A DNA stretch of 64,000 nt from positions 1-64,000 of the IMG/VR virus record IMGVR_UViG_3300029922_000007. One strand, 5' to 3'. Below, piece after piece: positions 17,570 through 60,059 of the stretch (the stretch's first letter is position 1; each line of letters opens with the position of its first letter). The stretch comes from a virus. The position numbers were made by a program, and so were the translations under genes. Below the pieces are notes generated by a model. It saw only the letters and a program-made list of their open reading frames with translations. It was not told the origin of the DNA and did no database searches.

Positions 17570-18397
17570 TTAGGGGGCTTCTCGCAGATACTTAAACCTG
17601 TACCCATTTGTACCGCGTTGTTTTCCCCGTAAGGTCCTACTTATTCCAGTTATGTTTATATCCAATTCGTCTCCAGCGCTTTGCAGGGTATAGTAGGTTT
17701 TACCATTGTTTAAACAAATAAAGGGTTCTCCTCTATTCGCTTCCGATATTTTTTCGCGACTCTGCTTTGACATCCTATTCCCAAAATTGGGATTGTTTTC
17801 ACCCTTTGTAGCTTTAGAGATTTTTTGTTTTACTTCTTCTGAAACCGTCTTTCCTGTGCTAGAAACAGATATGTTACGCCTTACCTCTTCTGAGCGCGGA
17901 ACTCCTTTCTTTGATTCACCTATTTTTATTTTAGATGTCTCTGCGTGCTTTCTACCCGTCCCAGCCTTGGATATCTTATCTCTCGTTTCATTCGTAGCGG
18001 TTTTTCCAAAATTTGGGTGCTTTTCTCCGCTTATAGATTCGGAGTGTTTTTTCTTCCGTTCTTCTGTCCAAGTTTTTCCTTTACCCGCCTCAGACATTTT
18101 TTTACGAGTTTCATCCGAAACCATATGATTGTTTCCACCCGTATGGAGGTTGTATCCATTTGGACTCATCGTATTATAATATTCTATAAAGTATTCTTCG
18201 GCCAAATTCAAATCTTCTATGTTATCACATGTATGGATAATACTTTGAGTGAAATTTTCTTTTCCGTATTTCTTTATAGCCTTATAAAGGATAGACCCGG
18301 CGCAGCAATGTTCGGTCCACCTTCTTTTTAAGGTTTTTATGGTCTGACCTATATATTCCTTACCGTTAATTTTATTAATAATTCTATAAACGATCAT
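17570..18397 (-). CDS. GIY-YIG homing endonuclease (NUMOD3 + NUMOD1)
   Basis: IVYRIIN...EYIGQT; NUMOD3 repeats; C-terminal HTH. Confidence 0.9.
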   Translation of the reverse strand: MIVYRIINKINGKEYIGQTIKTLKRRWTEHCCAGSILYKAIKKYGKENFTQSIIHTCDNIEDLNLAEEYFIEYYNTMSPNGYNLHTGGNNHMVSDETRKKMSEAGKGKTWTEERKKKHSESISGEKHPNFGKTATNETRDKISKAGTGRKHAETSKIKIGESKKGVPRSEEVRRNISVSSTGKTVSEEVKQKISKATKGENNPNFGNRMSKQSREKISEANRGEPFICLNNGKTYYTLQSAGDELDINITGISRTLRGKQRGTNGYRFKYLREAP

Positions 18398-22003: not shown

Positions 22004-22915
22004 TTAAATCATTTCAGCAAAATGTAATTTGCCGTGTTCTTTTGTACGGCACGCGTAGTTCTTGTTTACAGAATCGTCTACAGCTCTCATACTTACATTA
22101 AAGATTGCAGCGACGGCCCTACGCGAATCAAAAATCTCTTTAGTTTCTAAGCAGATAACTCTCTTATGAGATCCAGGCTTAGATTTTCTCTCAAGTCTAT
22201 TCTTTTCACACAGAGCTTGAATTGCAGGATCCTTAGAGCGGATTGAAAATCCCTTGATAGTGTCGGCCTTACCACGAATAACGTTAGTAATATTTGGAGC
22301 CTTTGCTCCAATGGCTTGAGCTAGATCTTCAGTTCCCGCAAATTCAACCCATACGCCGTTCATCAACGCCTCTACAGGCTTTTTATTCTTGATGGCAGCC
22401 GCCAAAGCCTGTTCGACGACCTTCGCCATATGGTCTGGATTGTCAGCGAGCCTCTTCTTCATACCCTCAGAAACCTTGTCGGCCCAAGTAATTTCTCGGC
22501 CAGTCATTTTTTGGCTCATTAGGGCTTTAGTTTCTGCGGTGTGGGTTTTTCCGGTGCATGATAGGACTCGTTTTTTCTTCTCTTCTTCAGATTGAATACG
22601 CCCCCTTACACCGTGACCACCCGTAGTCATGTTATATCCAAGGCCGCCGCCAAAACACAGACTGTTAAGCTCTTTAATCCAAAAGATTTCCCTATTGTCT
22701 AGTTCGGTTTCAAAAGTTACTTCAATGGTCTCGATCTTAAAGTTTTCTGCGCCATATTTACGAATAGCCCTACAGAGCGCTAATTCACTTCCAAGATTCG
22801 CAGTCCTAACATGCTTAGAAAACCTCAACTCCACCGTATAAACAGTCTGACCAACGTACAATTTGCCGTTGATGAGGTTAGTAATGAGGTAGATGGAGCC
22901 TAGAGAAGCTTTCAT
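22004..22915 (-). CDS. GIY-YIG homing endonuclease
   Basis: SIYLITN...LYVGQT; GYNMT; two NUMOD1-like HTH domains. Confidence 0.9.
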   Translation of the reverse strand: MKASLGSIYLITNLINGKLYVGQTVYTVELRFSKHVRTANLGSELALCRAIRKYGAENFKIETIEVTFETELDNREIFWIKELNSLCFGGGLGYNMTTGGHGVRGRIQSEEEKKKRVLSCTGKTHTAETKALMSQKMTGREITWADKVSEGMKKRLADNPDHMAKVVEQALAAAIKNKKPVEALMNGVWVEFAGTEDLAQAIGAKAPNITNVIRGKADTIKGFSIRSKDPAIQALCEKNRLERKSKPGSHKRVICLETKEIFDSRRAVAAIFNVSMRAVDDSVNKNYACRTKEHGKLHFAEMI

Positions 22916-23214: not shown

Positions 23215-23832
23215 TTATCCTGGTAGCTTTGGTTTGGACATTTGGTGGATTTGATCGAGGGTTTGCTGGTGGGAAGACTTAGCTTGCGCCGTTCCAACTT
23301 GAACTCCGTGAGGAGTAGCCCCGCGAGCACTGGCAGTTGCACCAACACCGGCAGCGCTAGTAGACGTGGGGGCATCGGCTCTACCGTGTTGTACTGCGGT
23401 ATTAACGCCTTTTTCATATCCAGTCTCAGCCTTATCCATTTCGGGAGCAGCTTTTTGGCTCTTCTTCATTTCCATTTTACCCATAAACTTAGCGAGCTTA
23501 TAGGAACCCTTTTCACGATGTTCTTGCTTTTCAGCTTCAGGATTCTCAGATTCATGGGCTTCAACTTCATGTTCAACTTTTTCGCCAAGTTCAGCATCCT
23601 GCTTCTCATCAGGGTTCTTTTCGGACATTTCCATATCTTCGGACTTGCCCATTTTGGCTTTAATCGAACCATTGATCTTGTCGGCAGTTTTCTTGGAATA
23701 GCCTTCGCCTTCCAACTTATGCTCAATTTTATCCCATTCCCCTTTAGCCAATGGAGAAAGTTTAAAAAGTTCCTGGGCTTTCGCCAGAACCATCATAGCT
23801 GCCTGTTGTGGGGTATAAACTTTGTCTGCCAT
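23215..23832 (-). CDS. Putative internal head protein
   Basis: Start MADKVY after AGGAG; highly charged, with several [LM]xK[SAG] motifs. Confidence 0.55.
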   Translation of the reverse strand: MADKVYTPQQAAMMVLAKAQELFKLSPLAKGEWDKIEHKLEGEGYSKKTADKINGSIKAKMGKSEDMEMSEKNPDEKQDAELGEKVEHEVEAHESENPEAEKQEHREKGSYKLAKFMGKMEMKKSQKAAPEMDKAETGYEKGVNTAVQHGRADAPTSTSAAGVGATASARGATPHGVQVGTAQAKSSHQQTLDQIHQMSKPKLPG

Positions 23833-23863
23833 GGGAACTCCTAATAACAATAAGATTGGACGA

Positions 23864-24211: not shown

Positions 24212-24712
24212 CTAAAGATAGGAGGCATCTATTCTATTCCCCTTAGCGCTATTCGCAGATTTAGTTAATATCTGCAAGTTCCAGGGTACGTGTAAACCTC
24301 TTACATTTTTGCCCAATAAGGGCAAGATATGATCAACTTCATGGGGAATGCCAGTTTCCTTAGTCTTTCTAGCAGCTTCTATATAGAATTCGTCTATTTT
24401 ATTGTAGTCTGATTCGGTAAGCCAGGAAGGGGTAGCTTGGATTTTGGCTGCGTTTCTTCTGGCTGTAGCAGAGTTCACCAGCGCAGCATTTTCCTTTTTA
24501 TAGAGAGAAGACCTCGTATTTTCTTTTTTCTTATTTTCTACATAATACTGAGCATTATACGCGCTTCTAGTTTCTTTGTTCTTAGCTCTAGATATTTCAT
24601 CGTATGCCTTAGCACACAGCTTACATTTATGCTGAAAACCGTCTTTGGCCCCCTTATCCTTACTAAAATAGCTAATCTCTTTATTTTCCTTACACTTAGA
24701 ACATACCTTCAT
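24212..24712 (-). CDS. HNH homing endonuclease
   Basis: CxxC/CxxC N-terminus; HEVDHILPL...GLHVPWNLQIL...N..K. Confidence 0.9.
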   Translation of the reverse strand: MKVCSKCKENKEISYFSKDKGAKDGFQHKCKLCAKAYDEISRAKNKETRSAYNAQYYVENKKKENTRSSLYKKENAALVNSATARRNAAKIQATPSWLTESDYNKIDEFYIEAARKTKETGIPHEVDHILPLLGKNVRGLHVPWNLQILTKSANSAKGNRIDASYL

Positions 24713-29456: not shown

Positions 29457-30413
29457 TTAGCTCTCCGACCCATCTTCTTTAAAAAGCGTCATATCTACTA
29501 TAATTGAACTGGGATTAGGAGTGACAGTCCCCAAAGGCTCCTGGACCGCCCGATCTGGGGTTTTGGATAGAGTGGTGTTCTTAGGATCGCCCTTGTTCTG
29601 GTTATGGTATAGGTACTCTCTTTGTATGGTAGCATTATATGCCATACGTTCAGCCTGACGTACTCCACCTTCGGTAACTACAGCCATACGAACTTCCTTA
29701 GGAAGGGCCACAACATAGAAGAAAGCCTTGTAGGTATATCTAATGCTGTATACGCGACCTAATCCCGTAGAAGGGTTATGGCCCGGATTTTTACCTGTAG
29801 CGAGCCAAGAAATATTCCCTTGAGGGGTGATCACGTAGTCTAGGCCCTCAACATACTGGACATTGTTAGAGTCATAGATAGGAAGGTCCATGCAAATTAT
29901 TGGGAACATCGGAGTATTAATTCCAGATTCGTAGACCATCTTCTGATAATTGATCACCCTAACATCACAATTGGGGTCAGAAACATAAACTCTATCTCCC
30001 GGCGCAAGAAGGATTCTGCATTGGTTGTCCTGAGGGTTAGTGTTAATTTGGCCAGGAGTGTCCCTACCCATATCGTAGAACCTGGGAAGAATTAGATTTG
30101 ATACGCTAGGATCGTCCGTACCGCCATCGGTCCTGCGTTTATCTCTAGTATTGGAAACTTCTGCGGCAGTGAAATGCCCCTTAAAGATGTATATGGAACC
30201 GTTTGAAGTTATAGTGTCAACTCCTCCTTCTCTGCGGTAATCACCCCTATCGTTCAATCCAATAGGAGAAGGCATGCAGGCATAGTGAGCATACGAAATT
30301 CCCTGGCTCAGAACGAAACTATCGTCTTGATTTAAATTAAAAGAGGTCTGCACAATGGGGCAATATCCGTTGATGGACTGCAACTGTTCTCCTTTAGGCG
30401 GCCTTATACTCAC
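29457..30413 (-). CDS. Putative head closure/neck protein
   Basis: GDRVYV and YSIRY motifs; located in the neck region. Confidence 0.5.
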   Translation of the reverse strand: MSIRPPKGEQLQSINGYCPIVQTSFNLNQDDSFVLSQGISYAHYACMPSPIGLNDRGDYRREGGVDTITSNGSIYIFKGHFTAAEVSNTRDKRRTDGGTDDPSVSNLILPRFYDMGRDTPGQINTNPQDNQCRILLAPGDRVYVSDPNCDVRVINYQKMVYESGINTPMFPIICMDLPIYDSNNVQYVEGLDYVITPQGNISWLATGKNPGHNPSTGLGRVYSIRYTYKAFFYVVALPKEVRMAVVTEGGVRQAERMAYNATIQREYLYHNQNKGDPKNTTLSKTPDRAVQEPLGTVTPNPSSIIVDMTLFKEDGSES

Positions 30414-31230
30414 TGGAACCCCCTAAAAAATCTAGACAGCGTTTAATGCAGCCTTCTTTGTCTGCATTCCACTCCTCTTCCGTAATGTGAATAATATTAA
30501 TACCTATAGATAAAAAATGAGTGTCTTTGATCTCATGGTACCGACGGACATCGTCGTCGGTCCACAATCCCTTATTTTTATTTCTTCTCATGTATTCAAA
30601 AGAGTGATAGTAGGTCCCATCAAATTCAATTCCTCGATTAAGTTCTGGGACATAAATGTCCAGATCGAACCTTTTTATATAATCCTTATCGGGAATAGTA
30701 ACCTTAGAACCCCTAATTTTCTTAGCGGTAGGGTATCTCTTAGAGATCTCGCACATCAACCCCAATTCTGCCACCGATACTGTACCCAATATAACCATAT
30801 GCGAGCATACTCTATCTAAGATCTTTCTCCTTCTAGCTAAGATATATGCTGAGTTACTGCCGTACTTGAATTCCGCTCGTGTTTTATACTTGAGAGCCTC
30901 TTTAAAAATCATATCGTCTGTCCAATAAGTATACGCATCTTCCATATGAGCACAAATTTGCTCTAAGACACTCCTTCTAATGGCCGTCCTGTATGCAGGA
31001 TGGTTTCCTTCTCTAAATTCCGCTCGTGTTTTATACTTCAACGCCTCTACACGGAGCATATCGTCGGTCCACCATACATAAACACAGTCCATGTGAGAGC
31101 AAATTTTATCTAAAAGACCTCTTTTGCTGGCAACCTTATAGGCGGACTTACTGTTTTTGGCAAAATCTCGCCTACTCTTATATTTAAGAGCTTCTAGAGC
31201 AAGTTCCGTATCAGTCCACACATTTTTCAT
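30394..31230 (-). CDS. Repeat-containing EDxHD/Vsr-like endonuclease (3 repeats)
   Basis: Three 49-aa WT...EALKY...AY...CSHM repeats, then DLDIYVPELNRGIEFDGTYYH...KD. Confidence 0.8.
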   Translation of the reverse strand: MKNVWTDTELALEALKYKSRRDFAKNSKSAYKVASKRGLLDKICSHMDCVYVWWTDDMLRVEALKYKTRAEFREGNHPAYRTAIRRSVLEQICAHMEDAYTYWTDDMIFKEALKYKTRAEFKYGSNSAYILARRRKILDRVCSHMVILGTVSVAELGLMCEISKRYPTAKKIRGSKVTIPDKDYIKRFDLDIYVPELNRGIEFDGTYYHSFEYMRRNKNKGLWTDDDVRRYHEIKDTHFLSIGINIIHITEEEWNADKEGCIKRCLDFLGGSSEYKAA

Positions 31231-31584: not shown

Positions 31585-32079
31585 TTATTTCATCCTCACG
31601 ATTTTCATACCAGAGGACAAAGCTTTTTCTGAAACAGCGCCAGATAAACAAGCTACGAACTCTTTAGAGGCGTCCATGGATTTAATCAAAAGGGCGCTAT
31701 TCTCAAAAGTAGCCTTCACAAGACCGACCTTGATGTTCTGTTTGGTCACAAAGAAGTCCACAGAGGCACCATTTTGTACAGAATAAATGTCATGACCGGA
31801 TTTACGAAGATCGTCTGTAAGGAAATGGGAATGGCTTTCAGCATGCACGCTTTCATGCTCCGATTTCATCAGCATTGGCTGAAATTCAGGATGGCGCTGT
31901 TCGATAGTGTAACAAAGGATAGCCTGATGACTAGCAGCACCTAAAACATCTTCTCCGCCATTTTTACCAACGGTAGTTGCAAGATTTAGTCCACCACGAA
32001 GTTTCACTAGATTTACTTGCTTACCATTAAGCATTCCGAAAGGTTCAACCGATGCTACTTCATTTTCTGAGATTTTCAT
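31585..32079 (-). CDS. Hypothetical head-module protein
   Basis: ORF in operon; LMKSE motif. Confidence 0.55.
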   Translation of the reverse strand: MKISENEVASVEPFGMLNGKQVNLVKLRGGLNLATTVGKNGGEDVLGAASHQAILCYTIEQRHPEFQPMLMKSEHESVHAESHSHFLTDDLRKSGHDIYSVQNGASVDFFVTKQNIKVGLVKATFENSALLIKSMDASKEFVACLSGAVSEKALSSGMKIVRMK

Positions 32080-32081
32080 AT

Positions 32082-33836
32082 TTATTTTTCCTTATCGTAG
32101 GCTTCGCGAATCTTTTTCACATGGAAGTGATTTTTAATATCTTGCTTATTCTTTTTAGCTTTTAAAGCGCCAGAAATTCCATTAAACCAAGCATATCCAG
32201 CCTGTTCTGGATCGTTGCCTAGGCGATGTTCAATATGGGTAAGATGCCTATCGGCGATAGTATCTTCAAGTCCCTTATTGTCTCTCATATAGTTGCTAAG
32301 ATTTTGACCAGTGAGAGCTAAAGCTTTGCCATGTTTGGTCTTGAGGTCTTTGTGTCCCTTGATAGTATCGTGGATAGTATTAGGCATTAAGGCATATTTT
32401 CCATACGCTACCTCGCCATTAGCAGCAGGCTTATGGTTTGTATCTGCACCATTTCTACTCTCAACTTGAGCCATTGCTCGCAGCATTCTTCCATGGTCAT
32501 AAGCTTGGGCTTGCGGCTTTGGTTGCTGAATACTAGCTGGAGCCCTATTTCCCGCATCTGAAGTATTAGTTCCGCCAGCTAATGCACCGGCCATACCAAG
32601 AGCAATACCTGCGTTTTTGAGAGCGCCTTTTTCCAAAGAAATAAGGATAGATTCGCCTTTCTCTAAAAGTTCATTTCCTGTAGTATTGAGCTTATCTCTT
32701 AAAAATAGCGCTTTCTTTTCATCTTGCAAGTCTTGCGAGGTTGGTTTTTTAGGGCCATCCATCCCTATCTTATGGTTGTATCCGGCACCATTAGAATTGT
32801 GGGTGCCATGGATAGTATAGTTACCAACATTGATCTTATATCGGCCTTCACCGTGCATATTTTTAGGATTTTTACCGGCTGGATTAAACGAAGACTGAGA
32901 CTTAATGCCATGCATTCCATTTAGACCGGAAATAAATTGGTGAAGATGACCAGACGCAGCATTGGCATGAGAGCTTAATAGCGCCGCCGCACCAATAGCG
33001 GCCGTCCTTAAAGCACCCTTCTCAAGAGGTACTTCTTTTTTGCTGACTTTTTCAGGCAGCTTCTTCCCCTTAGTCGCTTCATCCCATTCATGAACACCAG
33101 CTTTACCGCCAAGAGCTTTTTCGCCCTCTGCCGTGTGGCCCCAACGTCTCTGGGCGTCCGATACGAATGGTTTCATGAGAGGGTTAAGCTTCTCAGCTTT
33201 GTGCATTGGGCAAAGACTATCTTTTTCAGATGCGGCAAGCTTACCCATTTGAGGTTCGTAATTAAGTTTTGCTGTAAGGTCTCCTTCATCAGGAACCCTA
33301 GGTTCAGCGGAATCTGGCTCGTGATGGTAAGTCTTGATAGTTTGCGGCCCACGCTTAAGCTCAGCATTACCAAATTCAATACCGGCCTCAAATGCGGTTT
33401 TTGCGCCAGAAGCCTTGATTTCGTCATGCAAGTCTTTACTGACAGTAATGTGAGCCTGGAATGCATAAGGAACTGGATCGCCCATACCAGCGAACTTTCC
33501 ATTTAGCTCTTTCATTTTCTCAGCAGAATTCCCGTGGAGCTTGATTACATAAATATCGTCGCCGTTTTTACCTTGGAACTTTCCAGGTTCAATCTGGGTA
33601 TTTTTAGCATCCGGAGGATTAAGGGGAAGATGTTGGGCTAATTGGTGGATAGCGTGCCCATGGTCCTTCTCCTTGTTGAATACTTTGATAGTTGCATGAT
33701 AGCCAACATTATTTACTGGATTATGAGACTGCCCATCAATTTTTACAGGGAATGCGAGCATCATACCGGAATTAGCTCTAGAAGCATAACCCTCGGAATC
33801 CTCGTTCTTGTATAGATTTGATAGATAGCAAGTCAT
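32082..33836 (-). CDS. Multidomain protein: 2H phosphoesterase-like N-terminus and lysozyme/SLT-like C-terminus
   Basis: YHATI (H47) and AHITV (H129); C-terminal AMAQVES...AYGKYALMP. Confidence 0.7.
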   Translation of the reverse strand: MTCYLSNLYKNEDSEGYASRANSGMMLAFPVKIDGQSHNPVNNVGYHATIKVFNKEKDHGHAIHQLAQHLPLNPPDAKNTQIEPGKFQGKNGDDIYVIKLHGNSAEKMKELNGKFAGMGDPVPYAFQAHITVSKDLHDEIKASGAKTAFEAGIEFGNAELKRGPQTIKTYHHEPDSAEPRVPDEGDLTAKLNYEPQMGKLAASEKDSLCPMHKAEKLNPLMKPFVSDAQRRWGHTAEGEKALGGKAGVHEWDEATKGKKLPEKVSKKEVPLEKGALRTAAIGAAALLSSHANAASGHLHQFISGLNGMHGIKSQSSFNPAGKNPKNMHGEGRYKINVGNYTIHGTHNSNGAGYNHKIGMDGPKKPTSQDLQDEKKALFLRDKLNTTGNELLEKGESILISLEKGALKNAGIALGMAGALAGGTNTSDAGNRAPASIQQPKPQAQAYDHGRMLRAMAQVESRNGADTNHKPAANGEVAYGKYALMPNTIHDTIKGHKDLKTKHGKALALTGQNLSNYMRDNKGLEDTIADRHLTHIEHRLGNDPEQAGYAWFNGISGALKAKKNKQDIKNHFHVKKIREAYDKEK

Positions 33837-36042: not shown

Positions 36043-36579
36043 TTAAGAAATCATCTTGTTGTTTTTATGACGATTTTCTTCCTGCGTAATAACCCTCAGA
36101 TTCCAAGGTACGTGTAGACCTCTTACGTTTTTACCTTGAAGCGGTACTATGTGATCAACTTCATGCGGAATTCCAGTTAAAAGAGACCACAAGGACGCAA
36201 AGATATAAAAATTCTGCATTTCTTGAAGCTGAATTTTGGTCAACCATTTGGGAACGGCCTTACGCCTCGCAGCCCTACGTTTAGCCGTCTTAGCATTGAT
36301 CTTCCCAGGATTGGCCTTTCTGTACTCTTCAGCGTATAGGGTTAAAGATTCCTTATTTTGAGCCGTATGAATGGCCCGACTTGCTGAAATCTGTTCTCGT
36401 TTTTCTTCACGATATTTTCGACCATACGCGGTTGCTTTTTCAGGATTGTCTCTATTGCGCTGAGTAGTCTCGGTGTTGTGGCATTTTTTACAAATAGCTC
36501 TTAAGCCATCTTTGCCCAATTTAGCCTTACCGAAAAACTTAATTTCTTTGCTTTCTTTGCATTTAGTACAGGTCTTCAT
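36043..36579 (-). CDS. HNH homing endonuclease (paralog of 24212)
   Basis: HEVDHIVPLQGKNVRGLHVPWNL. Confidence 0.9.
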   Translation of the reverse strand: MKTCTKCKESKEIKFFGKAKLGKDGLRAICKKCHNTETTQRNRDNPEKATAYGRKYREEKREQISASRAIHTAQNKESLTLYAEEYRKANPGKINAKTAKRRAARRKAVPKWLTKIQLQEMQNFYIFASLWSLLTGIPHEVDHIVPLQGKNVRGLHVPWNLRVITQEENRHKNNKMIS

Positions 36580-36683: not shown

Positions 36684-38081
36684 TTAGGTATAGACCTGTC
36701 CTTGCAGATTACCGACGATTGCGTTTTTACGAGGACTTTCAACAGCAAGCGTAGTCCAACGATAGAACGCGTTGTTGATAGAGAGCTGCGAGATGCCGAG
36801 CTGGAGTTTCTTGAATCCCGAAAGCTCGCCCATATGGGCTGAGTCACGCTGAATCAAGAATCCAGTGAGACCGCCTGGGCTAAGGTTACCGAGATCGGTG
36901 AACGAAGCGCCCGATGGGGTGGCCGCGATGTTACCAATGAACAGTTCCGAACCAGGGCTACCAGCATTACCAGTACGGTAAACGCGGTAGTAGAGAGCAC
37001 CGGCAACTGCACCGATCGTCAAAGTCACCTTGTCGCCCGTAGCTGCCACAACGACAGCCGTAGGAGGATTCGACGTAGGGCCTTCACCGACCTGGTTCAC
37101 AGCAGCGACAACGTAGCTATACGTGCCAGCGGAGATCAAGGAACCAGCCGCGCCAGTGTCAGCACCGGAGAGCGTTGGAGCTACAGGAGCGCCAAAGATC
37201 TGCTGATTGACAGGGCTGATCTGCTTACGAAGATATTGACTCATCTCCAACGTAATCGCACCGCTCGAAGTCCATTGGGTACGCAGATGCGAACCGGTAG
37301 CTTCCTGAGGAGAACCAGCGAGAACGATACGTTCTTTAGCCTGGCTGATCTTGTTGTAGGACGAGAGGGACGAAGGGTCCAGCATCAGCTTGTCCGCACG
37401 ACCCATGTTAAGGGCAGAACGAACCGAGATGTCTTCAATGAGGGATTGCGTCAGAGTGCCGCCACCAGCAGAGAACACAACCGTTGCGCTCGAACCGTAC
37501 GAAGCGAACATGAGATCTTGTCCGTTACGTTCATAATCCGAAGCGCGAACCTGAAGGTCAAACCCGCGCATGTTGGCAAGAGCAGGAACTAGGGCAGGAT
37601 TGCCATCGAAGACTCCGTTGTTTGAGAAGTCAGAGTTACCTGCGAACAGGTCGAACTCGATATCTTGAGCGAGGTTGAGGGCCGCATCCTGGGCCTGGCG
37701 CTCTTCAGCGGTAACCTTGTCAAACGTCTCAACGGCATTCGCAACCAGCGAATGTTCGCGCGTATCAACGTAGTAAGCCATAGGCACGACCAAGCGAGCA
37801 GCTTGACCGGTTTTCTTGGCTCCCAGCATACCTTCGTAAGCAGCTGAACCGCCGAAACGGCCAACCGACAATTTACGGTTATACTGGTAGAGGTTGCTCT
37901 TCGTATTACGAACGTCGAGCATTTTCTGCAGTTTGATAGTTTCTTCGGCAGCGGTCACGTTCACCATCACAGGAGCGAGATCCTCGATCTGGTAAGCGGC
38001 ACCTTGCACCAACGTGCTTGGTGCGGCATTGTAACTGCCCGCCTCAAGCGCTTTCATAAGGGACTGAAGTTGTTCAAGCAT
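36684..38081 (-). CDS. Major capsid protein (Herelleviridae-like)
   Basis: 465 aa after the scaffold; AQDIEFDLFAG motif and a YSYVVAAVN..GE insertion domain; strong SD and a terminator. Confidence 0.85.
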   Translation of the reverse strand: MLEQLQSLMKALEAGSYNAAPSTLVQGAAYQIEDLAPVMVNVTAAEETIKLQKMLDVRNTKSNLYQYNRKLSVGRFGGSAAYEGMLGAKKTGQAARLVVPMAYYVDTREHSLVANAVETFDKVTAEERQAQDAALNLAQDIEFDLFAGNSDFSNNGVFDGNPALVPALANMRGFDLQVRASDYERNGQDLMFASYGSSATVVFSAGGGTLTQSLIEDISVRSALNMGRADKLMLDPSSLSSYNKISQAKERIVLAGSPQEATGSHLRTQWTSSGAITLEMSQYLRKQISPVNQQIFGAPVAPTLSGADTGAAGSLISAGTYSYVVAAVNQVGEGPTSNPPTAVVVAATGDKVTLTIGAVAGALYYRVYRTGNAGSPGSELFIGNIAATPSGASFTDLGNLSPGGLTGFLIQRDSAHMGELSGFKKLQLGISQLSINNAFYRWTTLAVESPRKNAIVGNLQGQVYT

Positions 38082-38114: not shown

Positions 38115-38993
38115 TTACTTAAGCAGATGACGAACTGTTTCGACGTTTTTACTGAAGTAGTAACTGTTAATGGCATCTCTGTCCGACTTAGAAAGAGAGA
38201 TATCTTTCGCTTTAGCCAGAAGCTTAGCGTCGATCTCACTCTTTTGGAGAGGCTTTTCGCTACCTTCGTTACCGCTTTTAGCGATAATGTCCAGTGACGT
38301 GATTGCCTTACCTGCAGGAGCCGTTTTTTCGACGAATTTCGTCAAGAAAGCAGAGACTGCATCCAAGTTTTTCTTGTACTCATCGCGTTCCGATTTGAGC
38401 AAACTAACTTCAGAACTAGAGTCCTTTTCAGACTTAGCCATAGCTTGCATATCGCTAGATGCTGGAGTTTTGCTACTCGCAGCTTCGCCATCTTTAGCAC
38501 CACCGTTTGGACGATAGCCCTGAGCATCTTTAGCGCCATCTTCCATTTCAGATTTAGCCATAGCACCATCCATGCACTTACGGACTGCATCGTGATGAGC
38601 TTTCAGTTCAGGTCCAGACATTGAAGAGTACATACTGTGCATATGTTGCATATCTTCGTCATCATAGCCATGATCCTGGGCTTCGCCATGAGGGTCATCA
38701 GAAGGCTTTGCGTTTTCTTTGCCATCGGCAGCAGAACGCTCTTCTTTGGATTCTTCCTTGCTTTCTTCTTTAGCGGGTTCCTTAGAAGTGTCCTGTTGAT
38801 GCTGGTCTTTAACACCTTTATCTTCAGGCTTTTCGTGTTCCATCGGCTTCTTTTCTTCTTTAGATTCTTCCTTCTTAGGAGGGAATTCTTCAGATTTGGC
38901 AAGACTGAAAGATTTTTCAGCCTTGGCAAGATGAGCCGTGAACTCGTTCGTCACGTCGGCTATCAATTTGTTGAGGTCTGTTTCGGTATACAT
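38115..38993 (-). CDS. Capsid scaffolding protein
   Basis: Charged low-complexity protein immediately upstream of the capsid gene; many xxKSE motifs. Confidence 0.7.
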   Translation of the reverse strand: MYTETDLNKLIADVTNEFTAHLAKAEKSFSLAKSEEFPPKKEESKEEKKPMEHEKPEDKGVKDQHQQDTSKEPAKEESKEESKEERSAADGKENAKPSDDPHGEAQDHGYDDEDMQHMHSMYSSMSGPELKAHHDAVRKCMDGAMAKSEMEDGAKDAQGYRPNGGAKDGEAASSKTPASSDMQAMAKSEKDSSSEVSLLKSERDEYKKNLDAVSAFLTKFVEKTAPAGKAITSLDIIAKSGNEGSEKPLQKSEIDAKLLAKAKDISLSKSDRDAINSYYFSKNVETVRHLLK

Positions 38994-39490: not shown

Positions 39491-39692
39491 GATAAATTCT
39501 CCTTAAAAATCTTATATTTAGTACTAAGTTGCCGCTTCTATCGATAAATGCGGCTTAACCAATTGGTTTCAAAGGTAAGATTCGTATTACGAAAAAATAG
39601 TGTATGAAAACATATAGTTATTAGAAACAGTTTTAGTAATCAAAAAACAATCCCATGATATAGAACATTTGAATCGAGACAATCTTATCTAT

Positions 39693-40451
39693 ATGAAGAC
39701 CTGTACTAAATGTAAAGAAAACAAAGACTTAATCAAGTTCTCTAAACGCAAAAAGGCTATGGATGGCCGTAGAGAACATTGCAAGGAGTGCGAAAAGAAA
39801 ATTAAGCAAGAAAAAAGAGACGAAAAATGGAAACTCATGCTTATCGCGGATGAAGCCCGTTTAATTCGTGAGGAAAAACGTAAAAGCGATACCAAAAAGA
39901 AAATTGAAGAAAAAAGAAAACATGCCGAACTGGGAATAAGAATTTGTACGAAATGTAAGGAAATCAAGGACCTAAAAAGTTTTAAGAAAAGAAAGTTACG
40001 CCTGGTAGAAGGCCCTAAGCCTGGATTTGCCGCAATTTGTAAAAAATGCTATAGTAAAGAGCAAGTCCGTTATGCGAAGGAAAGAAAGAGGGTAGATCCC
40101 GCATTTAAACTTAAATGCAGCCTGAGAACTCGCATAACTAATATGATGGCCCAGTACGTAAAAACGGGAATAAAAGAGCCTAAATCCGGTTCCGCTGTGA
40201 GAGATTTAGGCTGCAGTATAGAAGATTTTTGTAAATATATCGAATCCCTATGGCAATCAGGTATGTCCTGGGATAACTACGGAAATAAGGAGGGGCAATG
40301 GAGTCTAGATCACATATTCCCACTTTCCAGGATCGATCTGACAGATAGAGAACAATTCTTAAGGGCAAATCACTATACTAACCTGCAGCCTATGTGGCAT
40401 ATTGAGAACATCATTAAAAGCGACAAACTCCTCTCCAATCTTATCTATTAG
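39693..40451 (+). CDS. HNH homing endonuclease with two Zn-finger modules
   Basis: CTKCKE twice; LGCS...MSWDNYG...WSLDHIFP...NHYTNLQPMW..EN..K. Confidence 0.85.
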   Translation: MKTCTKCKENKDLIKFSKRKKAMDGRREHCKECEKKIKQEKRDEKWKLMLIADEARLIREEKRKSDTKKKIEEKRKHAELGIRICTKCKEIKDLKSFKKRKLRLVEGPKPGFAAICKKCYSKEQVRYAKERKRVDPAFKLKCSLRTRITNMMAQYVKTGIKEPKSGSAVRDLGCSIEDFCKYIESLWQSGMSWDNYGNKEGQWSLDHIFPLSRIDLTDREQFLRANHYTNLQPMWHIENIIKSDKLLSNLIY

Positions 40452-40461
40452 AGGTATTTTT

Positions 40462-41886
40462 ATGTCGACGTTTATTCATGGTTGCGCTTCAGTCCAATCT
40501 ATTGATACTGCTAGTGAAATCGTAGATATTCGTGGGCTAGACATAACCTCTCTTGCTCGCAGTGGAATTTTGAACTTTGAGCACGATCAAGGCAAAGACG
40601 CTGAGGGTAAGCTTATTACCATTAAGCTTCCGGCCCAAATTGTCGGAAAAATCCTTAAGGCTAAGAAGCTCTTTAGTTCCAGCGACTGCACCACCCCCAG
40701 CGAAACATACTTCTGGAACAAAACTAAAATCCCATTTGTTTATATTTTGGCCGAACTCCTAGATGATTATTGCGATAGCGCCAGGGAATGTGCCGGTAAG
40801 TTTAAATACAGCAAAGACCGTCCAGACCTACAGGCCATTTTAGGTTTCTCAGTTGAGGGCTCAGAGCTACCAGGATCCAGGGTCAATAAGATTTTGATTG
40901 GCAGGTCTATTGCTCGTAAGGTCACGTTGACTTCTACCCCAGCAAACCATATGTGTATAGCCGAAATATACGATGAGGCCATGGATTCTGCGGTAAAAGA
41001 TGAGTTTGAATCCCTATTTCGATCCGAACAAGAAGCGGTTACATTATTTAAATCGGACGAAGGCTCTAGACTTTACGATCAGTTCTTGCTTAAAAAAGAA
41101 ATCGATTTCAAACATACTCCAAAATTCGGCCCCATTAGTTCAGTAGCTAAGATGCCGGGCATTCCTATTGGGCAGACTAAAAGCGGCAAAGATGTAATGA
41201 GCCATCTCAAGCCTAACGACTATAAGGGTTGGTCTACTCAAGACCACAGAGACGCTGGGAATATTCACTATTCTAACGCTGAAGCTGGTAAGGGGGTTCC
41301 AGGTGCTACCCATTTTGATAGCGCTAAAAGGCACTTAGCTTTTGCTAACAAAAGTGAACCCATGGCTAAGGGAGAAGATCTTAAAAAAGACGCTAACATG
41401 GCCGCTCCTCCAGCTGAACCAAATGCTGCTAATGCTCAATCTATGCAAAATGGAGGTACATCTGGCGGGACATCTTTTAGTCAAGCTATGTCCAATCTCT
41501 CAAGCGGACTCGGGCTTAGCAAAAAAGATAAATCGAAACAAAAACCTCTTCAGAAGGCCGTAGAGGCTGGAAGTTATAATGCAGCTCCTTCCTCATTAGT
41601 TAATGGCGCAGCTTATCAGGTTGAAGGGCTTTCTTCAAAGCAAGCAAAGACTGGAGCTGAAGATCACAATTTTCAGGGCACCAAGAAAAAGACTGATTGG
41701 AATAAGCGCTCTAAGGACGAGTACGAGCGTTGGCCTCAAAGAGAAGCTTTTGAGAAGTTTATGTCTGCTAGGATGCCTCATCTTGCTCTTGGAGAGATCA
41801 AGGCTGTTGGCCGCGCTCTGGCCCTAAGTAAGTCTTTAGATCTAGAGAGATCCTTAATTCTACTTGTTGACAAAAAACGTAAATAG
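40462..41886 (+). CDS. Prohead protease with C-terminal extension
   Basis: G.AS....D...EIV, NFEH, LGFSVEG and VTLTSTPAN motifs; GAGG SD. Confidence 0.8.
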   Translation: MSTFIHGCASVQSIDTASEIVDIRGLDITSLARSGILNFEHDQGKDAEGKLITIKLPAQIVGKILKAKKLFSSSDCTTPSETYFWNKTKIPFVYILAELLDDYCDSARECAGKFKYSKDRPDLQAILGFSVEGSELPGSRVNKILIGRSIARKVTLTSTPANHMCIAEIYDEAMDSAVKDEFESLFRSEQEAVTLFKSDEGSRLYDQFLLKKEIDFKHTPKFGPISSVAKMPGIPIGQTKSGKDVMSHLKPNDYKGWSTQDHRDAGNIHYSNAEAGKGVPGATHFDSAKRHLAFANKSEPMAKGEDLKKDANMAAPPAEPNAANAQSMQNGGTSGGTSFSQAMSNLSSGLGLSKKDKSKQKPLQKAVEAGSYNAAPSSLVNGAAYQVEGLSSKQAKTGAEDHNFQGTKKKTDWNKRSKDEYERWPQREAFEKFMSARMPHLALGEIKAVGRALALSKSLDLERSLILLVDKKRK

Positions 41887-41906: not shown

Positions 41907-42599
41907 ATGTTGATTTACATGATAACCAATAAAATAAGCGGAAATCGATATATCGGACAAACAGTCCAAAGGTTGGAGAAGCGATGGTGCCAACATTGCA
42001 ATCTGACTCCCAACTCTAAACACAGAAATATGCCTATTGTGAGAGCCATCCAAAAGTATGGCAGGGAGAACTTTGAAATCAAAGTATTGGCTAGATGCGC
42101 CTCTATTGAAGAAATGAATCACAGAGAAGAATACTACATCAAGATATTCAACACGTTATCTCCCAATGGGTATAATTTGGACAGCGGTGGTAAAAATAGA
42201 AGGACCCATCAATCAACCAAAGACAAGCTGTCTAAGATACACAAGGGAAGGCCGGGGAAAGCACCCTCTCAAGAAACCAGAGATAAAATAGCCAAGGCTA
42301 ATTTTGGTAAAAAGTGCTCGAAGAAAACTCGAAATAAAATGTCTGAGTCTAGATCTGGGTCGAACAATCCTAATTTTGGCGGCAAATCCGTTACGGAAAA
42401 ACAAAGGCAGGCATTAAGAGAGTATAGTACGGGAAGACCCTCTCCTAGACGTAAGAAAGTACTTTGCGTTACAACTGGAACAGTTTATCCATTTCTTATG
42501 GAAGCCGCTAAAGTATTGGGAATAAATTTTCAGGCAATTGCTAGAGTTTGTAGCGGCGAAAGACCTCACACGCACGGACTAATTTTTAAGTATATTTAG
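41907..42599 (+). CDS. GIY-YIG homing endonuclease
   Basis: LIYMITN...RYIGQT; NUMOD3 and NUMOD1 motifs. Confidence 0.9.
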   Translation: MLIYMITNKISGNRYIGQTVQRLEKRWCQHCNLTPNSKHRNMPIVRAIQKYGRENFEIKVLARCASIEEMNHREEYYIKIFNTLSPNGYNLDSGGKNRRTHQSTKDKLSKIHKGRPGKAPSQETRDKIAKANFGKKCSKKTRNKMSESRSGSNNPNFGGKSVTEKQRQALREYSTGRPSPRRKKVLCVTTGTVYPFLMEAAKVLGINFQAIARVCSGERPHTHGLIFKYI

Positions 42600-47248: not shown

Positions 47249-47827
47249 TTAAGGAATAAAAAATCTGTGCCCATCCGGCTTAAGCTCTCGATAATCTAAA
47301 TGAACCCAGTTACTAGCAGGCTTATCCTCACATCGCATAGCCCAAGTATCCAATAGTTTTTCTTTGACCAAGATATCCCTTACTTCATCACAGGTCATCC
47401 CCATAAGGTCCCAGTCCATTGCCTTCCCCTCAGAATGAGCTGAGTGAAGTGCTCCCCCAATAGCCTTATTGTACTCAAGTGGTCGATAGGTAACATGTGT
47501 ATTTATCGGCTTGTCAAAATATTCCCTAACCGTATCCATCTTTTTACCAAGCTCGATGAGATTAGCTTTAACTTCCTCATTTAGTCCGTCAGCTTCATTG
47601 GCCATACGTTTCCAGGTTGGAAGATAAATCATATCGTGGACCGTAAAATACTTTGAAACTTTTTGAGTACCATCTGTCCAGTCAATGGTCGCTGGTTTGG
47701 CTTCTTCGGGTTTCGCTTCCTCAGGCTTAGGCTGCTCTTTTGGCTCTCCAATAGGAATACTGACCACTGCCTCTTTTTTGGTCAAAAGCCCCAATACCAA
47801 CTCAAGCAAGCTCTTCCACAAGTCCAT
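47249..47827 (-). CDS. Peptidase M15-type endolysin
   Basis: YR...YN..IGG...SAH..G.AMD and WVHLD; GAGG SD and CAATCTTA upstream. Confidence 0.8.
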   Translation of the reverse strand: MDLWKSLLELVLGLLTKKEAVVSIPIGEPKEQPKPEEAKPEEAKPATIDWTDGTQKVSKYFTVHDMIYLPTWKRMANEADGLNEEVKANLIELGKKMDTVREYFDKPINTHVTYRPLEYNKAIGGALHSAHSEGKAMDWDLMGMTCDEVRDILVKEKLLDTWAMRCEDKPASNWVHLDYRELKPDGHRFFIP

Positions 47828-47871
47828 AAATACCTCTTTACTTCTAATAGATTCTATCATAAGATTGGAGA

Positions 47872-48189
47872 ATGAAGTTGAGGATTCAATTTGGTCTTCT
47901 AGACTCAAAAGAAGTTTTTTGGTGGCAGGAAGTCCTTGATTTTCCTAAGCTTATTAAGTTTTGCGGCAAGAACTTCGAATGGGTATTTTATGGATCAGAC
48001 GATAGCAATGTTGTTGACTATATCTTAACATTTTCGGACCTTCCAAGCTATCATTCGGAGTACCATACGGACTGCGTTCGATGGACCGATCTATTCCCTG
48101 AGCATGTTGGCGGCTGTGAATGCGGATCTAAATATGATCGAAATGGTCCAACGCATATGTTTTATTGTAAAATGTGGAGAAAGAATTGA
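47872..48189 (+). CDS. Hypothetical protein with C-terminal CECG...H..YC motif
   Basis: GGAG SD. Confidence 0.55.
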   Translation: MKLRIQFGLLDSKEVFWWQEVLDFPKLIKFCGKNFEWVFYGSDDSNVVDYILTFSDLPSYHSEYHTDCVRWTDLFPEHVGGCECGSKYDRNGPTHMFYCKMWRKN

Positions 48190-52838: not shown

Positions 52839-52839
52839 G

Positions 52840-59981: not shown

Positions 59982-60025
59982 GGATACTCCTTTGGCTGGT
60001 GTTCTAATACGATATATCATAGAAG

Positions 60026-60053
60026 TTGACTTAACCCCTAAATATGCTAACCT
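60026..60053 (+). promoter_or_regulatory. Sigma70-type promoter, leaderless to 60060
   Basis: TTGACT-N16-TAACCT with TG extension; ATG 6 nt downstream. Confidence 0.6.
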
Positions 60054-60059
60054 CATCCA

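What the first reader, a model, noticed from the sequence alone, without database searches (positions are those of the whole stretch)
32560..33026. Cryptic signal-peptide-like segments right after putative maturation sites
Seen: LEK-GALRTAAIGAAALLSSHANA-AS (basic residue, hydrophobic core, AxA) at about 33026-32958. A second copy, LEK-GALKNAGIALGMAGALAGG, at about 32636-32570 precedes the lysozyme-like domain. Inference: protease cleavage unmasks new N-termini that target the fragments to the membrane, Sec pathway or ejection channel, amounting to an internal sorting code for ejected proteins. The hydrophobic cores are short and Ala/Gly-rich.
Basis: inference. Interest (0 to 1): 0.7.

Follow-up and report, generated by a model that had tools for sequence, protein, structure and literature searches.

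The report
Hydrophobic leader before phage wall-cutting domain
A large uncultured soil phage carries a multi-enzyme protein in which the cell-wall-cutting part, and only that kind of part, is preceded by a conserved "cut-here lysine plus short greasy peptide" module, which probably steers that piece to the bacterial envelope after the protein is cut up, although neither cutting nor targeting has been shown.

Summary
Both segments are real: LEK|GALRTAAIGAAALLSSHANA (aa 271-293) and LEK|GALKNAGIALGMAGALAGG (aa 401-422) of the 584-aa ORF 32082-33836(-). The domain order is 2H phosphoesterase, small helical domain, mid domain, SLT transglycosylase.

They are two copies of one module: hydrophobic-x-K, small residue, basic "GALKN", a 13-15-residue uncharged Ala/Gly core, usually a Pro, then a P/S/T/Q linker. 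191 of 193 SLT-bearing relatives have it, including cultured Myxococcus phage Mx1. The Lys is the only invariant column among 106 aligned sequences.

The module sits only before the SLT or a small mid domain. It never precedes the 2H, NUDIX, VTC, GNAT or ART payloads.

The same hydrophobic-x-K-[SAG] motif marks the capsid N-terminus and the protease tail. It occurs nine times in the scaffold (about 1 expected). That fits a head-protease site, but cleavage is unproven.

The segments are far too short and weak for a transmembrane or SAR helix. Their layout is signal-peptide-like, yet weaker than this phage's own export signals.

Verdict: observation confirmed, interpretation partly supported. 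It is a new variant of phage polyvalent virion proteins. The scan noted the same feature on another Mx1-like genome (e1-5734692, e1-5734704).

The parts
32082..33836 (-). 584-aa polyvalent protein gene (P0002)
   Evidence: Open frame. 165 and 603 homologues. Its position after the capsid gene is conserved in L002, L004 and Mx1.
33309..33815 (-). 2H phosphoesterase domain (aa 8-176; HxT motifs at H47 and H129)
   Evidence: AF2 pLDDT above 90. Foldseek matches LigT, CPDase, Acb1 and phage BCSR5 phosphodiesterase at probability 0.87-1.0. H47 and H129 are nearly invariant. No hydrophobic module lies before it.
33033..33194 (-). Conserved 'AQRRW' helical mini-domain (aa 215-268), function unknown
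   Evidence: Local HMM finds it in 78 relatives. Three short helices with pLDDT about 90.
32952..33026 (-). Module copy A: L271-E-K273|G274 ALRT AAIGAAALLSS H-A-N-A|AS (aa 271-295)
   Evidence: Across the 15 rows of alignment A2, 14 of them mid-domain relatives, K273, H290 and A293 are invariant and A291 is kept in at least 90%. AF2 gives a helix at 273-287 with pLDDT below 50 over residues 281-292. KD19 1.04, uncharged run 12 aa.
32652..32951 (-). Mid domain (aa 296-395): helix, four strands, long helix; no clear known fold
   Evidence: AF2 pLDDT mostly 73-95 per block of 10 residues. Best PDB Z is 7.0, a generic alpha+beta arrangement. Found in only 16 relatives. Not homologous to SLT by hhalign.
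32655..32666 (-). Extra LEK|G site (aa 391-394) without a hydrophobic tail, at the end of the mid domain
32571..32636 (-). Module copy B: L401-E-K403|G404 ALKN AGIALGMAGALAGG (aa 401-422)
   Evidence: K403 is the only invariant column of 106 sequences. AF2 gives coil with pLDDT below 50, not packed on any domain. KD19 1.01, summed dG19 +7.3, uncharged run 15 aa.
32523..32570 (-). Low-complexity S/T/P/Q linker between core and SLT (aa 423-438)
   Evidence: The family median from core to SLT is 17 aa. The C-flank composition is P 17%, A 14%, Q 10%, S 9%, T 8%.
32091..32522 (-). SLT-type lytic transglycosylase domain (aa 439-582; catalytic E459-S460 at nt 32457-32462)
   Evidence: AF2 pLDDT about 97. 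Foldseek matches P. aeruginosa Slt and C. jejuni Cj0843 at probability 1.0. Atlas neighbours carry PF01464. E459 and S460 are kept in at least 90% of sequences.
38049..38060 (-). Putative maturation site of the major capsid protein, L-M-K|A (aa 8-11)
   Evidence: The same L-x-K|A-x-E-A-G is present in L002, L004 and Mx1 capsid proteins. Cleavage is inferred, not shown.
41545..41634 (+). Copy of the capsid site and arm in the protease tail (PLQK|AVEAGSYNAAPS...)
   Evidence: The protein matches phrog_1028, head maturation protease, at E 2.5e-9.
38115..38993 (-). Putative scaffold protein with nine [LMIV]-x-K-[SAG] motifs
   Evidence: 9 observed against 1.0 expected (Poisson p 1.4e-6). 8 against 0.28 when followed by D/E (p 7e-10).
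47249..47908 (-). Separate endolysin (Peptidase_M15_3), so the SLT protein is not the phage's only wall enzyme
   Evidence: PF08291 at E 6.5e-12 and phrog_894 endolysin at E 1.8e-22.

Best explanation
The two segments are copies of a conserved leader module that belongs to the envelope-acting parts of a phage polyvalent virion protein. Each module has two halves. The first is a hydrophobic-x-Lys|Gly site of the type this phage's head-maturation protease is predicted to cut. The second is a short, weakly hydrophobic Ala/Gly-rich peptide with the n-h-c layout of a signal peptide.

The proposed course is this. The whole protein is built into the prohead, and the protease cuts it at the Lys sites into separate units. 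The transglycosylase and the mid domain thereby gain a free N-terminal hydrophobic leader, while the 2H phosphoesterase (and NUDIX, VTC, GNAT or ART payloads in relatives) gain none. On infection the leader keeps or brings the wall-cutting fragment to the membrane/periplasm side of the envelope, and the leaderless payloads act in the cytoplasm. I think direct, peripheral membrane association as the fragment leaves the tail channel is more likely than re-export through Sec.

Shown: the module, its conservation, its exclusive placement, its physico-chemical character, and the genome-wide pattern of the Lys motif. Inferred: packaging, cleavage, ejection and targeting.
For: Module conservation and the single invariant Lys. 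The core keeps its length (13-15 aa in 176 of 193) and composition but not its sequence in distant members, as expected for a lipid- or translocon-facing peptide rather than a specific protein interface. It is placed only before SLT or the mid domain. In Mx1's protein, which has GNAT, ART-PolyVal, NUDIX, SLT and ParB-like domains, the only such stretch lies before the SLT, while other junctions carry hydrophobic-x-K|[SA] without a hydrophobic tail. Charge asymmetry (K+R N>C in 172 against 4) and Pro after the core in 113 of 193. Conserved A-x-A in copy A (A293 invariant, A291 at least 90%). Distant stand-alone SLT relatives carry an N-terminal hydrophobic leader at the same distance from the domain (P0245, P0254, P0192, P0158, P0178). 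The hydrophobic-x-K|[SAG] motif occurs at the capsid N-terminus and in the protease tail and is enriched in the scaffold and other head-module proteins. The gene's place in the head/neck gene block is conserved. The phage has a separate M15 endolysin. The modules are disordered and exposed in AF2 models. Topology argument (inference): two spanning segments in one uncut chain would leave the SLT on the same side as the N-terminal domain, so two leaders make sense only if the chain is cut or the segments do not span. The host is diderm, because the phage encodes PagL.
Against: There is no experimental evidence of packaging, cleavage or ejection for any member, and I found no virion proteomics for Mx1. 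Protease specificity is inferred only from motif statistics. The h-region is weak: KD10 is 2.0 against 2.5-3.75 for the phage's own lipoprotein and PagL signals, and summed dG19 is about +7 against +0.5 for the P1 Lyz SAR domain. So neither stable insertion nor efficient Sec recognition is assured. In contractile-tailed phages the known wall enzymes sit on the tail tip, and head-packaged proteins are thought to enter the cytoplasm with the DNA (own knowledge), so how a head-packaged SLT would reach the murein is unclear. Copy B has no conserved signal-peptidase-type site.
Confidence: 0.45

Rival explanations
1. The chain is not cut. The Ala/Gly stretch is a flexible, weakly hydrophobic tether inside an intact virion protein that dips into the membrane or into the tail-channel wall. 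The Lys is conserved for charge (positive-inside or snorkelling) or for binding, not as a cleavage site.
For: No direct evidence of cleavage. AF2 shows the module as a disordered linker. Virion lysins and tape-measure-type proteins with hydrophobic segments are known, for example Bc431v3 gp218, a virion tail lysin with three predicted TM domains (PMC3601020).
Against: It does not explain why Lys is the only invariant residue, with Leu/Met two residues before and Gly/Ser/Ala after, nor why the same tripeptide type marks the capsid N-terminus, protease tail and scaffold. Short proteins with about 20-aa leaders ending in LEK|G (P0137, P0140) look like cleavable propeptides. Two tethers in one chain give an awkward topology.
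Confidence: 0.2
2. The module is an assembly element rather than a membrane element. It would be a capsid-targeting or channel-docking peptide, or a small-xxx-small (glycine-zipper-like) helix that bundles copies inside the portal or tail lumen, removed or exposed by the protease.
For: GxxxG is enriched and GG/GxG depleted in the cores relative to shuffles (z +5.7, -6.8, -5.4; inflated by relatedness). T4 internal proteins use short cleavable N-terminal capsid-targeting sequences (own knowledge). The head-module context is conserved.
Against: A packaging signal should serve the whole polyprotein or every unit, yet the module tracks only the SLT and mid domains. Core sequence drifts freely while composition is kept. 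The charge asymmetry and the Pro after the core match export-type leaders.
Confidence: 0.15
3. The protein is not delivered by the virion. It is made late and inserted into the inner membrane by the internal hydrophobic segment as a signal anchor or SAR-like tether, with the SLT in the periplasm acting in lysis or wall remodelling.
For: Composition is SAR-like (73-75% G/A/S/T against 55% in the P1 Lyz SAR domain). Orientation by charge would be N-in/C-out. Stand-alone short forms resemble SAR or secreted lysins.
Against: The uncharged run is 12-15 aa against 20 in P1 Lyz, KD19 is 1.0 against 2.07, and summed dG19 is +7.3 against +0.46. In the family none of 194 has dG19 of 1.5 or less and 1 of 194 has KD19 of 1.6 or more. 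The segment lies 200-2300 aa from the N-terminus in most members. In two-module proteins such as this one the SLT would end up cytoplasmic. The phage has its own endolysin. Relatives carry ART-PolyVal and other payloads typical of injected polyvalent proteins. The gene sits in the head/neck block.
Confidence: 0.1
4. The segments are fossils: the signal peptide of a once free-standing secreted SLT gene, carried along when it was fused behind other domains, with no present function.
For: Distant SLT relatives have true N-terminal signals at the same position (P0245, P0254).
Against: It is retained in 191 of 193 diverged proteins, with an invariant Lys and a tightly kept core length. It has been duplicated in front of a second, unrelated domain.
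Confidence: 0.05

Closest known systems
Phage-type polyvalent proteins (Iyer, Burroughs, Anand, de Souza, Aravind 2017, PMC5512222)
   Same: Several unrelated enzyme domains in one polypeptide, encoded among late or virion genes, predicted to be injected and processed into units with different subcellular targets. 2H and lysozyme domains are listed as phage-specific components. The Mx1 homologue carries the ART-PolyVal Pfam domain.
   Different: That paper proposes processing by built-in MPTase-type peptidase domains and does not mention transmembrane or signal-peptide elements (0 occurrences). Here there is no peptidase domain. The junctions instead carry the putative head-protease motif, and one class of unit carries a hydrophobic leader.
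SAR (signal-arrest-release) endolysins, e.g. phage P1 Lyz
   Same: A muralytic domain preceded by a Gly/Ala/Ser/Thr-rich, weakly hydrophobic segment with a positive N-flank.
   Different: SAR domains are N-terminal in the primary translation product and about 20 residues long. P1 Lyz has a 20-aa uncharged run, KD19 2.07 and summed dG19 +0.46. The present cores are internal, 12-15 aa long, with KD19 about 1.0 and dG19 above +7. The phage has another endolysin.
Head-protease-processed internal or ejection proteins: T4 internal proteins and Alt with capsid-targeting sequences, phiKZ/SPN3US ejection proteins, P1 DarA/DdrB (PMC10052503, PMC5694885, PMC5512222; T4 details from own knowledge)
   Same: Proteins packaged in the head, cut by the prohead protease at a short consensus shared with the capsid and scaffold proteins, then ejected into the host.
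   Different: Those sites follow Glu (T4 L/I-x-E; phiKZ-type S/A/G-x-E), whereas here the candidate follows Lys. None is described as exposing a hydrophobic leader selectively on an envelope-acting fragment.
Virion-associated wall hydrolases with hydrophobic segments: T5 Pb2, T7 gp16 with gp14/gp15 (own knowledge); Bc431v3 gp218 tail lysin with three TM domains (PMC3601020)
   Same: A wall-degrading domain delivered by the virion and combined with membrane-interacting segments used during genome entry.
   Different: Those are tail or core proteins with real TM-length segments. Here the segment is sub-TM in length, follows an invariant Lys, and lies in a head-module polyvalent protein.
Protease-primed membrane-active N-termini of animal viruses (class I fusion peptides after cleavage at a basic residue; adenovirus protein VI) and bacterial effectors whose cleavage exposes an N-terminal lipidation signal (own knowledge, analogy only)
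   Same: Cleavage after a basic residue creates a Gly-initiated, Ala/Gly-rich N-terminal peptide that acts on membranes. Proteolysis unmasks a targeting signal after delivery.
   Different: No homology, and the core here is shorter. This is purely a mechanistic analogy and was not tested.

Membership tests
Sec-type cleavable signal peptide | Located at the N-terminus of the exported chain | tested here: not met
   The segments start at aa 274 and 404 of 584. The feature would be met only after the proposed cleavage, which cannot be tested here.
Sec-type cleavable signal peptide | Positively charged n-region before the core | tested here: met
   Conserved K/R at P4' (GAL-K/R-N). K+R are richer on the N-flank than the C-flank in 172 of 193 proteins against 4.
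Sec-type cleavable signal peptide | Hydrophobic h-region of about 7-15 residues, hydrophobic enough for SecA/SRP recognition | tested here: inconclusive
   Length fits (13-15 aa in 176 of 193). KD10 is 2.0, against 2.53 and 3.75 for the phage's own lipoprotein and PagL signals. No SignalP-type tool was available.
Sec-type cleavable signal peptide | c-region with small residues at -3/-1 (A-x-A) after a helix breaker | tested here: inconclusive
   Copy A: A293 is invariant and A291 is kept in at least 90% of the 15 rows (H-A-x-A|A-S). Copy B: Pro follows the core in 113 of 193 proteins, but the linker is so rich in small residues that the rule is uninformative.
Transmembrane helix | About 18-20 or more predominantly hydrophobic residues (KD19 of about 1.6 or more; negative or near-zero insertion free energy) | tested here: not met
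   Uncharged runs of 12 and 15 aa, KD19 1.04 and 1.01, summed biological-scale dG19 +7.8 and +7.3. In the family, 1 of 194 has KD19 of 1.6 or more and none has dG19 of 1.5 or less. TM-like ORFs of the same genome score -2 to +1.3. The scale values came from memory and carry no position correction.
SAR domain of SAR endolysins | N-terminal, TM-length, G/A/S/T-rich weakly hydrophobic segment directly before a muralytic domain | tested here: not met
   Composition and the neighbouring muralytic domain are met (73-75% AGST). N-terminal position and TM length are not met. P1 Lyz control: 20-aa run, KD19 2.07, dG19 +0.46.
Phage-type polyvalent protein (Iyer et al. 2017) | Two or more unrelated effector or enzyme domains in one polypeptide | tested here: met
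   2H fold plus SLT fold plus two further folded units. Relatives add NUDIX, VTC and GNAT. Mx1 adds ART-PolyVal PF18760.
Phage-type polyvalent protein (Iyer et al. 2017) | Encoded among late or virion structural genes | tested here: met
   Lies between the capsid gene (36684-38081) and other structural genes. Synteny is conserved in L002, L004 and Mx1.
Phage-type polyvalent protein (Iyer et al. 2017) | Packaged in the virion and delivered into the host | not testable with these tools
Phage-type polyvalent protein (Iyer et al. 2017) | Own processing peptidase (MPTase) domain; frequent but not obligatory | tested here: not met
   No Pfam or PHROG peptidase match in P0002, and none in Mx1's protein.
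Substrate of the phage's head-maturation protease | Carries the same short motif as the capsid protein's maturation site, in exposed regions | tested here: met
   L-E-K|G compared with capsid L-M-K|A and protease-tail L-Q-K|A. The motif is enriched in the scaffold. The modules have pLDDT below 50.
Substrate of the phage's head-maturation protease | Actually cleaved there | not testable with these tools
   Needs MS or N-terminal sequencing. I found no held paper giving the experimentally mapped site for this protease type.
SLT / family-1 lytic transglycosylase | Goose-type lysozyme-like fold with catalytic Glu in an E-S motif | tested here: met
   Foldseek probability 1.0 to Slt 6fbt, 5ohu and Cj0843. 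E459-S460 are kept in at least 90% of sequences. P0002 itself has no Pfam hit at E of 0.01 or better, but relatives and Atlas neighbours carry PF01464.

The most novel reading that the evidence does not exclude
Head-protease cleavage after an invariant Lys turns an internal peptide into a free N-terminal, signal-like leader on the wall-acting fragments only. One packaged polyprotein is thereby sorted after ejection into cytoplasmic payloads (leaderless) and envelope-directed units (leader-bearing). This would be a proteolytically unmasked sorting code for phage-ejected proteins, possibly using the host Sec system or spontaneous membrane insertion.
Probability: 0.3. Interest if true: 0.8.

Novelty: new variant of a known kind. 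Interest (0 to 1): 0.5.

Why it matters
Phage polyvalent proteins are thought to deliver several anti-defence and entry enzymes at once. How units with different destinations (cytoplasm or cell wall) are separated and routed is an open point that the founding paper raised only in general terms.

A leader module that tracks only the wall-acting unit, welded to a candidate head-protease site, gives a concrete hypothesis. It can be tested in a cultured, harmless system (Myxococcus phage Mx1).

It also gives a simple sequence rule: hydrophobic-x-K, a small residue, a basic residue, then a 13-15-aa Ala/Gly core. The rule can help annotate virion-delivered wall hydrolases in metagenomic phages and predict maturation sites in this large, mostly uncultured phage group.

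If the peptide proves inert or is only an assembly aid, the finding reduces to a family-specific linker.

Tried and rejected
1. Internal duplication of the whole "leader + SLT" cassette. I suspected the mid domain was a decayed SLT copy, because of the shared NGA-x-x-NHK and a 24-nt imperfect repeat. hhalign gives probability 0.06, and the AF2 folds differ (alpha+beta against all-alpha). Only the leader is duplicated.

2. Pfam and PHROGs on P0002 gave no hits. tblastn of the full protein against 50,697 phage records gave nothing at 1e-5. Only the SLT cassette at relaxed E found Mx1.

3. A region-only search with aa 388-430 found only proteins of the same SLT-bearing family, so the module was not seen with other domain families within 321-1022 aa.

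4. The search for related loci with alignments A1 and A3 failed because no conserved stretch was found. Some may be fragments.

5. Fold search of the mid domain gave a best Z of 7.0 and no convincing match.

6. Literature: I found no held paper with an experimentally mapped capsid cleavage site for SPO1/Twort/Mx1-type proteases, and no Mx1 virion proteome.

7. Glycine-zipper periodicity: GxxxG is enriched against shuffles. The sequences are related, so I give this little weight.

8. AF2 gave no docking of either leader onto a domain, so an autoinhibitory-propeptide reading has no support.
Full report
**What is there.** The finding lies in one ORF, window 32082-33836 on the minus strand, 584 aa. 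The two stated peptides are present at the stated coordinates:
- PLEK-GALRTAAIGAAALLSSHANA-AS, aa 271-295, nt 33026-32952.
- SLEK-GALKNAGIALGMAGALAGG, aa 401-422, nt 32636-32571.

A third LEKG (aa 391-394) has no hydrophobic tail. LEKG occurs nowhere else in ORFs of more than 100 aa in the window. The two copies share 12/29 residues and no DNA repeat.

**The protein.** An AlphaFold2 model built on 106 homologues (mean pLDDT 81.6) shows four confident units:
- an N-terminal domain, aa 10-175;
- a small helical unit, aa 220-260, containing a conserved "AQRRW" motif;
- an alpha+beta mid domain, aa 294-398;
- a C-terminal all-helical domain, aa 445-584.

Foldseek places the first with 2H phosphoesterases (LigT, CPDase, Acb1, a phage phosphodiesterase). 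It places the last with lytic transglycosylases (Slt, Cj0843) at probability 1.0. The H-x-T histidines and the E459-S460 motif are nearly invariant. The mid domain has no convincing structural relative (best Z 7.0) and is not homologous to SLT (hhalign). Both hydrophobic segments fall in low-confidence linkers (pLDDT below 50) and are not docked on any domain.

**Genome context.** The window belongs to a 166,169-bp phage genome. The gene lies downstream of the major capsid gene (phrog_752) in the structural block. That position is conserved in two IMG/VR contigs (L002, L004) and in cultured Myxococcus phage Mx1. The phage has a separate M15-type endolysin at 47249-47908. It also encodes a PagL-type lipid A deacylase, so the host is diderm.

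**The module in relatives.** Searches returned 165 and 603 homologues. Payload domains are swapped freely: 2H, NUDIX, VTC, GNAT, and in Mx1 also ART-PolyVal and a ParB-like tail. The element in front of the SLT domain is kept. Across 193 SLT-bearing proteins:
- 191 have hydrophobic-x-K at most 16 aa before the core.
- P3 is L in 139, M in 26 and I in 16.
- P1' is G in 135, S in 23, N in 11 and A in 9.
- The core is uncharged and 13-15 aa long in 176 of the 193 (A 36%, G 18%, L 13%).
- A median 17-aa linker leads to the SLT domain.

The residues after the Lys are typically G-A-L-K-N. Pro follows the core in 113 of 193 proteins. K+R are richer on the N side in 172 proteins against 4. In the 106-sequence alignment, K403 is the only invariant column.

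Copy A has its own conserved pattern, K...S-H-A-x-A|A-S-G-H-L-H. Across the 15 rows, K273, H290 and A293 are invariant and A291 is kept in at least 90%.

**Where the module sits.** A composition-based detector that ignores sequence similarity found 189 module-like segments:
- 166 lie just upstream of SLT.
- 15 lie upstream of the mid domain.
- The other 8 are four truncated SLT cases, three false positives and one protein with an unknown tail.
- None precedes a cytoplasm-acting domain.

In Mx1's 1479-aa protein the only Ala/Gly hydrophobic stretch is ELSK|SWKSAFAGALAAAGMSTASMAA, directly before the SLT. Other junctions there carry hydrophobic-x-K|[SA] without a hydrophobic tail. A search with the module region alone recovered only this family. 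More distant stand-alone SLT proteins carry a hydrophobic leader near their own N-terminus at the same distance from the domain.

**Is LEK|G a maturation site?** There is no direct evidence. The indirect evidence is as follows.
- The capsid protein begins MLEQLQSLMK|ALEAGSYNAAPS, and the protease tail repeats PLQK|AVEAGSYNAAPS. The protein matches phrog_1028, head maturation protease.
- Relatives and Mx1 keep L-x-K|A-x-E-A-G in the capsid protein.
- Over 204 predicted genes, [LMIV]-x-K-[SAG] is most enriched in the putative scaffold (9 against 1.0 expected, p 1.4e-6; 8 against 0.28 when followed by D/E, p 7e-10).
- It is also raised in other head-module proteins, including the gene next to the focal one.
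- The family linkers often carry two such sites in tandem (...V-x-K|S-E-x-x-L-E-K|G...).

This fits a protease that cuts after Lys. It remains an inference. I found no held paper that maps the site experimentally.

**What the hydrophobic part is not.** The table uses Kyte-Doolittle averages over the best 10- or 19-residue window (KD10, KD19). It also uses a plain sum of the Hessa biological scale over 19 residues (dG19, kcal/mol; values from memory, no position term).

| Segment | Uncharged run (aa) | KD10 | KD19 | dG19 |
|---|---|---|---|---|
| Focal copy A | 12 | 2.0 | 1.04 | +7.8 |
| Focal copy B | 15 | 2.04 | 1.01 | +7.3 |
| P1 Lyz SAR domain (from the public record) | 20 | 2.95 | 2.07 | +0.46 |
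| Own lipoprotein signal | 22 | 2.53 | 2.12 | -0.08 |
| Own PagL signal | 13 | 3.75 | 1.99 | +1.98 |

Across the family the median dG19 is +7.2, none of 194 reaches 1.5 or less, and 1 of 194 has KD19 of 1.6 or more. So these are not transmembrane or SAR helices. As Sec signals they would be weak. Their n-h-c layout, charge asymmetry, the Pro after the core and (in copy A) the A-x-A are nevertheless those of export leaders.

**Most likely mechanism (confidence 0.45).** The module is a two-part device, a head-protease site fused to a weak hydrophobic leader, attached only to the envelope-acting units of a polyvalent virion protein. After cleavage in the head these units carry the leader at a free N-terminus. 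On ejection it holds or brings them to the membrane/periplasm side, while leaderless payloads act in the cytoplasm. Four points favour cleavage:
- the invariant Lys;
- the shared motif in capsid, protease and scaffold;
- short proteins whose 20-aa leader ends in LEK|G;
- topology, since two spanning segments in one uncut chain would leave the SLT on the wrong side.

The main weaknesses are the complete lack of experimental data, the weak hydrophobicity, and the unclear route from a myovirus head to the murein layer. Rivals are an uncut tether (0.2), an assembly or oligomerisation element (0.15), a late-made signal-anchored enzyme (0.1) and a fossil signal peptide (0.05).

**Comparison with what is known.** The protein fits the phage-type polyvalent proteins of Iyer et al. 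2017 (PMC5512222). That paper lists 2H and lysozyme domains and argues that such proteins must be processed because their domains have different targets. It mentions neither transmembrane segments nor signal peptides and invokes built-in peptidases. The module resembles SAR domains in composition only. It parallels T4 and phiKZ-type protease-processed ejected proteins in logic, but with a Lys site. By analogy only, it recalls protease-primed Gly-initiated membrane peptides of animal viruses.

**Earlier scan notes.** The scan has already noted the same feature in another Mx1-like genome (e1-5734692, e1-5734704). The follow-up there also filed the protein as a new variant of polyvalent proteins. 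My analysis adds the family-wide statistics, the exclusive placement, the Mx1 case and the hydropathy controls.

**Verdict.** Observation confirmed. Interpretation partly supported: conservation, placement and the link to a cleavage motif hold, a TM helix is rejected, and signal function and cleavage are untested. Novelty: a new variant of a known kind. Interest 0.5.

Noticed in passing
L005:5743-10182 (Myxococcus phage Mx1, OR576727.2, WNM70333.1): The protein is annotated only as 'NUDIX hydrolase'. It is a 1479-aa polyvalent protein with GNAT (156-271), ART-PolyVal (649-896), NUDIX (923-1033), a hydrophobic leader (about 1058-1086), SLT (about 1100-1230) and a ParB-like tail with a DGNHR motif.
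   Followed up: partly
window 33033-33194 (-), aa 215-268 of the focal protein: A conserved 'KP[YF]VSEAQRRW...GGK..V.EWD..TKGKKLP' mini-domain forms three short helices with pLDDT about 90. It is present in 78 relatives and at the start of short proteins beginning MKP[YF]VSEAQRRW (P0126, P0224). It has no Pfam family and its function is unknown.
   Followed up: partly
window 32652-32951 (-), aa 296-395: The mid domain (helix, four-strand sheet, long helix) has a conserved His-rich start (SH-AHAASGHLH). It has no convincing PDB match (best Z 7.0). Several weak hits are lipid-binding helix-grip or TULIP-type folds.
   Followed up: partly
window 32430-32453 and 32769-32792: A 24-nt imperfect direct repeat (75% identity) encodes NGADTNHK in the SLT domain and NGAGYNHK in the mid domain. 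Profile comparison sees no homology between the two domains, so this is probably coincidence.
   Followed up: partly
window 38115-38993 (-), 51205-51819 (-), 23215-23850 (-), 31585-32079 (-): [LMIV]-x-K-[SAG] motifs are strongly enriched in the putative scaffold (9 against 1.0 expected). They are also raised in three other acidic or low-complexity head-module proteins, which are candidate further protease substrates.
   Followed up: partly
window 17570-18397, 22004-22915, 24212-24712, 36043-36579, 39669-40451, 41907-42599, 51822-52850, and the C-terminal part of 30394-31230: The structural gene block is interrupted by at least eight homing-endonuclease-type genes (GIY-YIG, HNH and endonuclease VII PHROG matches).
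   Followed up: no
window 1735-2331 (+): A 198-aa ORF has a lipoprotein-type signal (lipobox LSGC) followed by collagen-like repeats (PF01391). Its PHROG matches are to tail fibre proteins.
   Followed up: no
window 58212-60056 (-): Phage-encoded Cpn60/GroEL-family chaperonin (PF00118, E 4e-34).
   Followed up: no
window 33200-33320 (-), aa about 176-212, and relatives: Further conserved linker motifs lie between domains: 'VPDxxDxTAK', 'KLAASE' and 'xKSE' just before LEKG. Some relatives have 'ALWSQPNRPFGKSE'. Their role is unknown.
   Followed up: no
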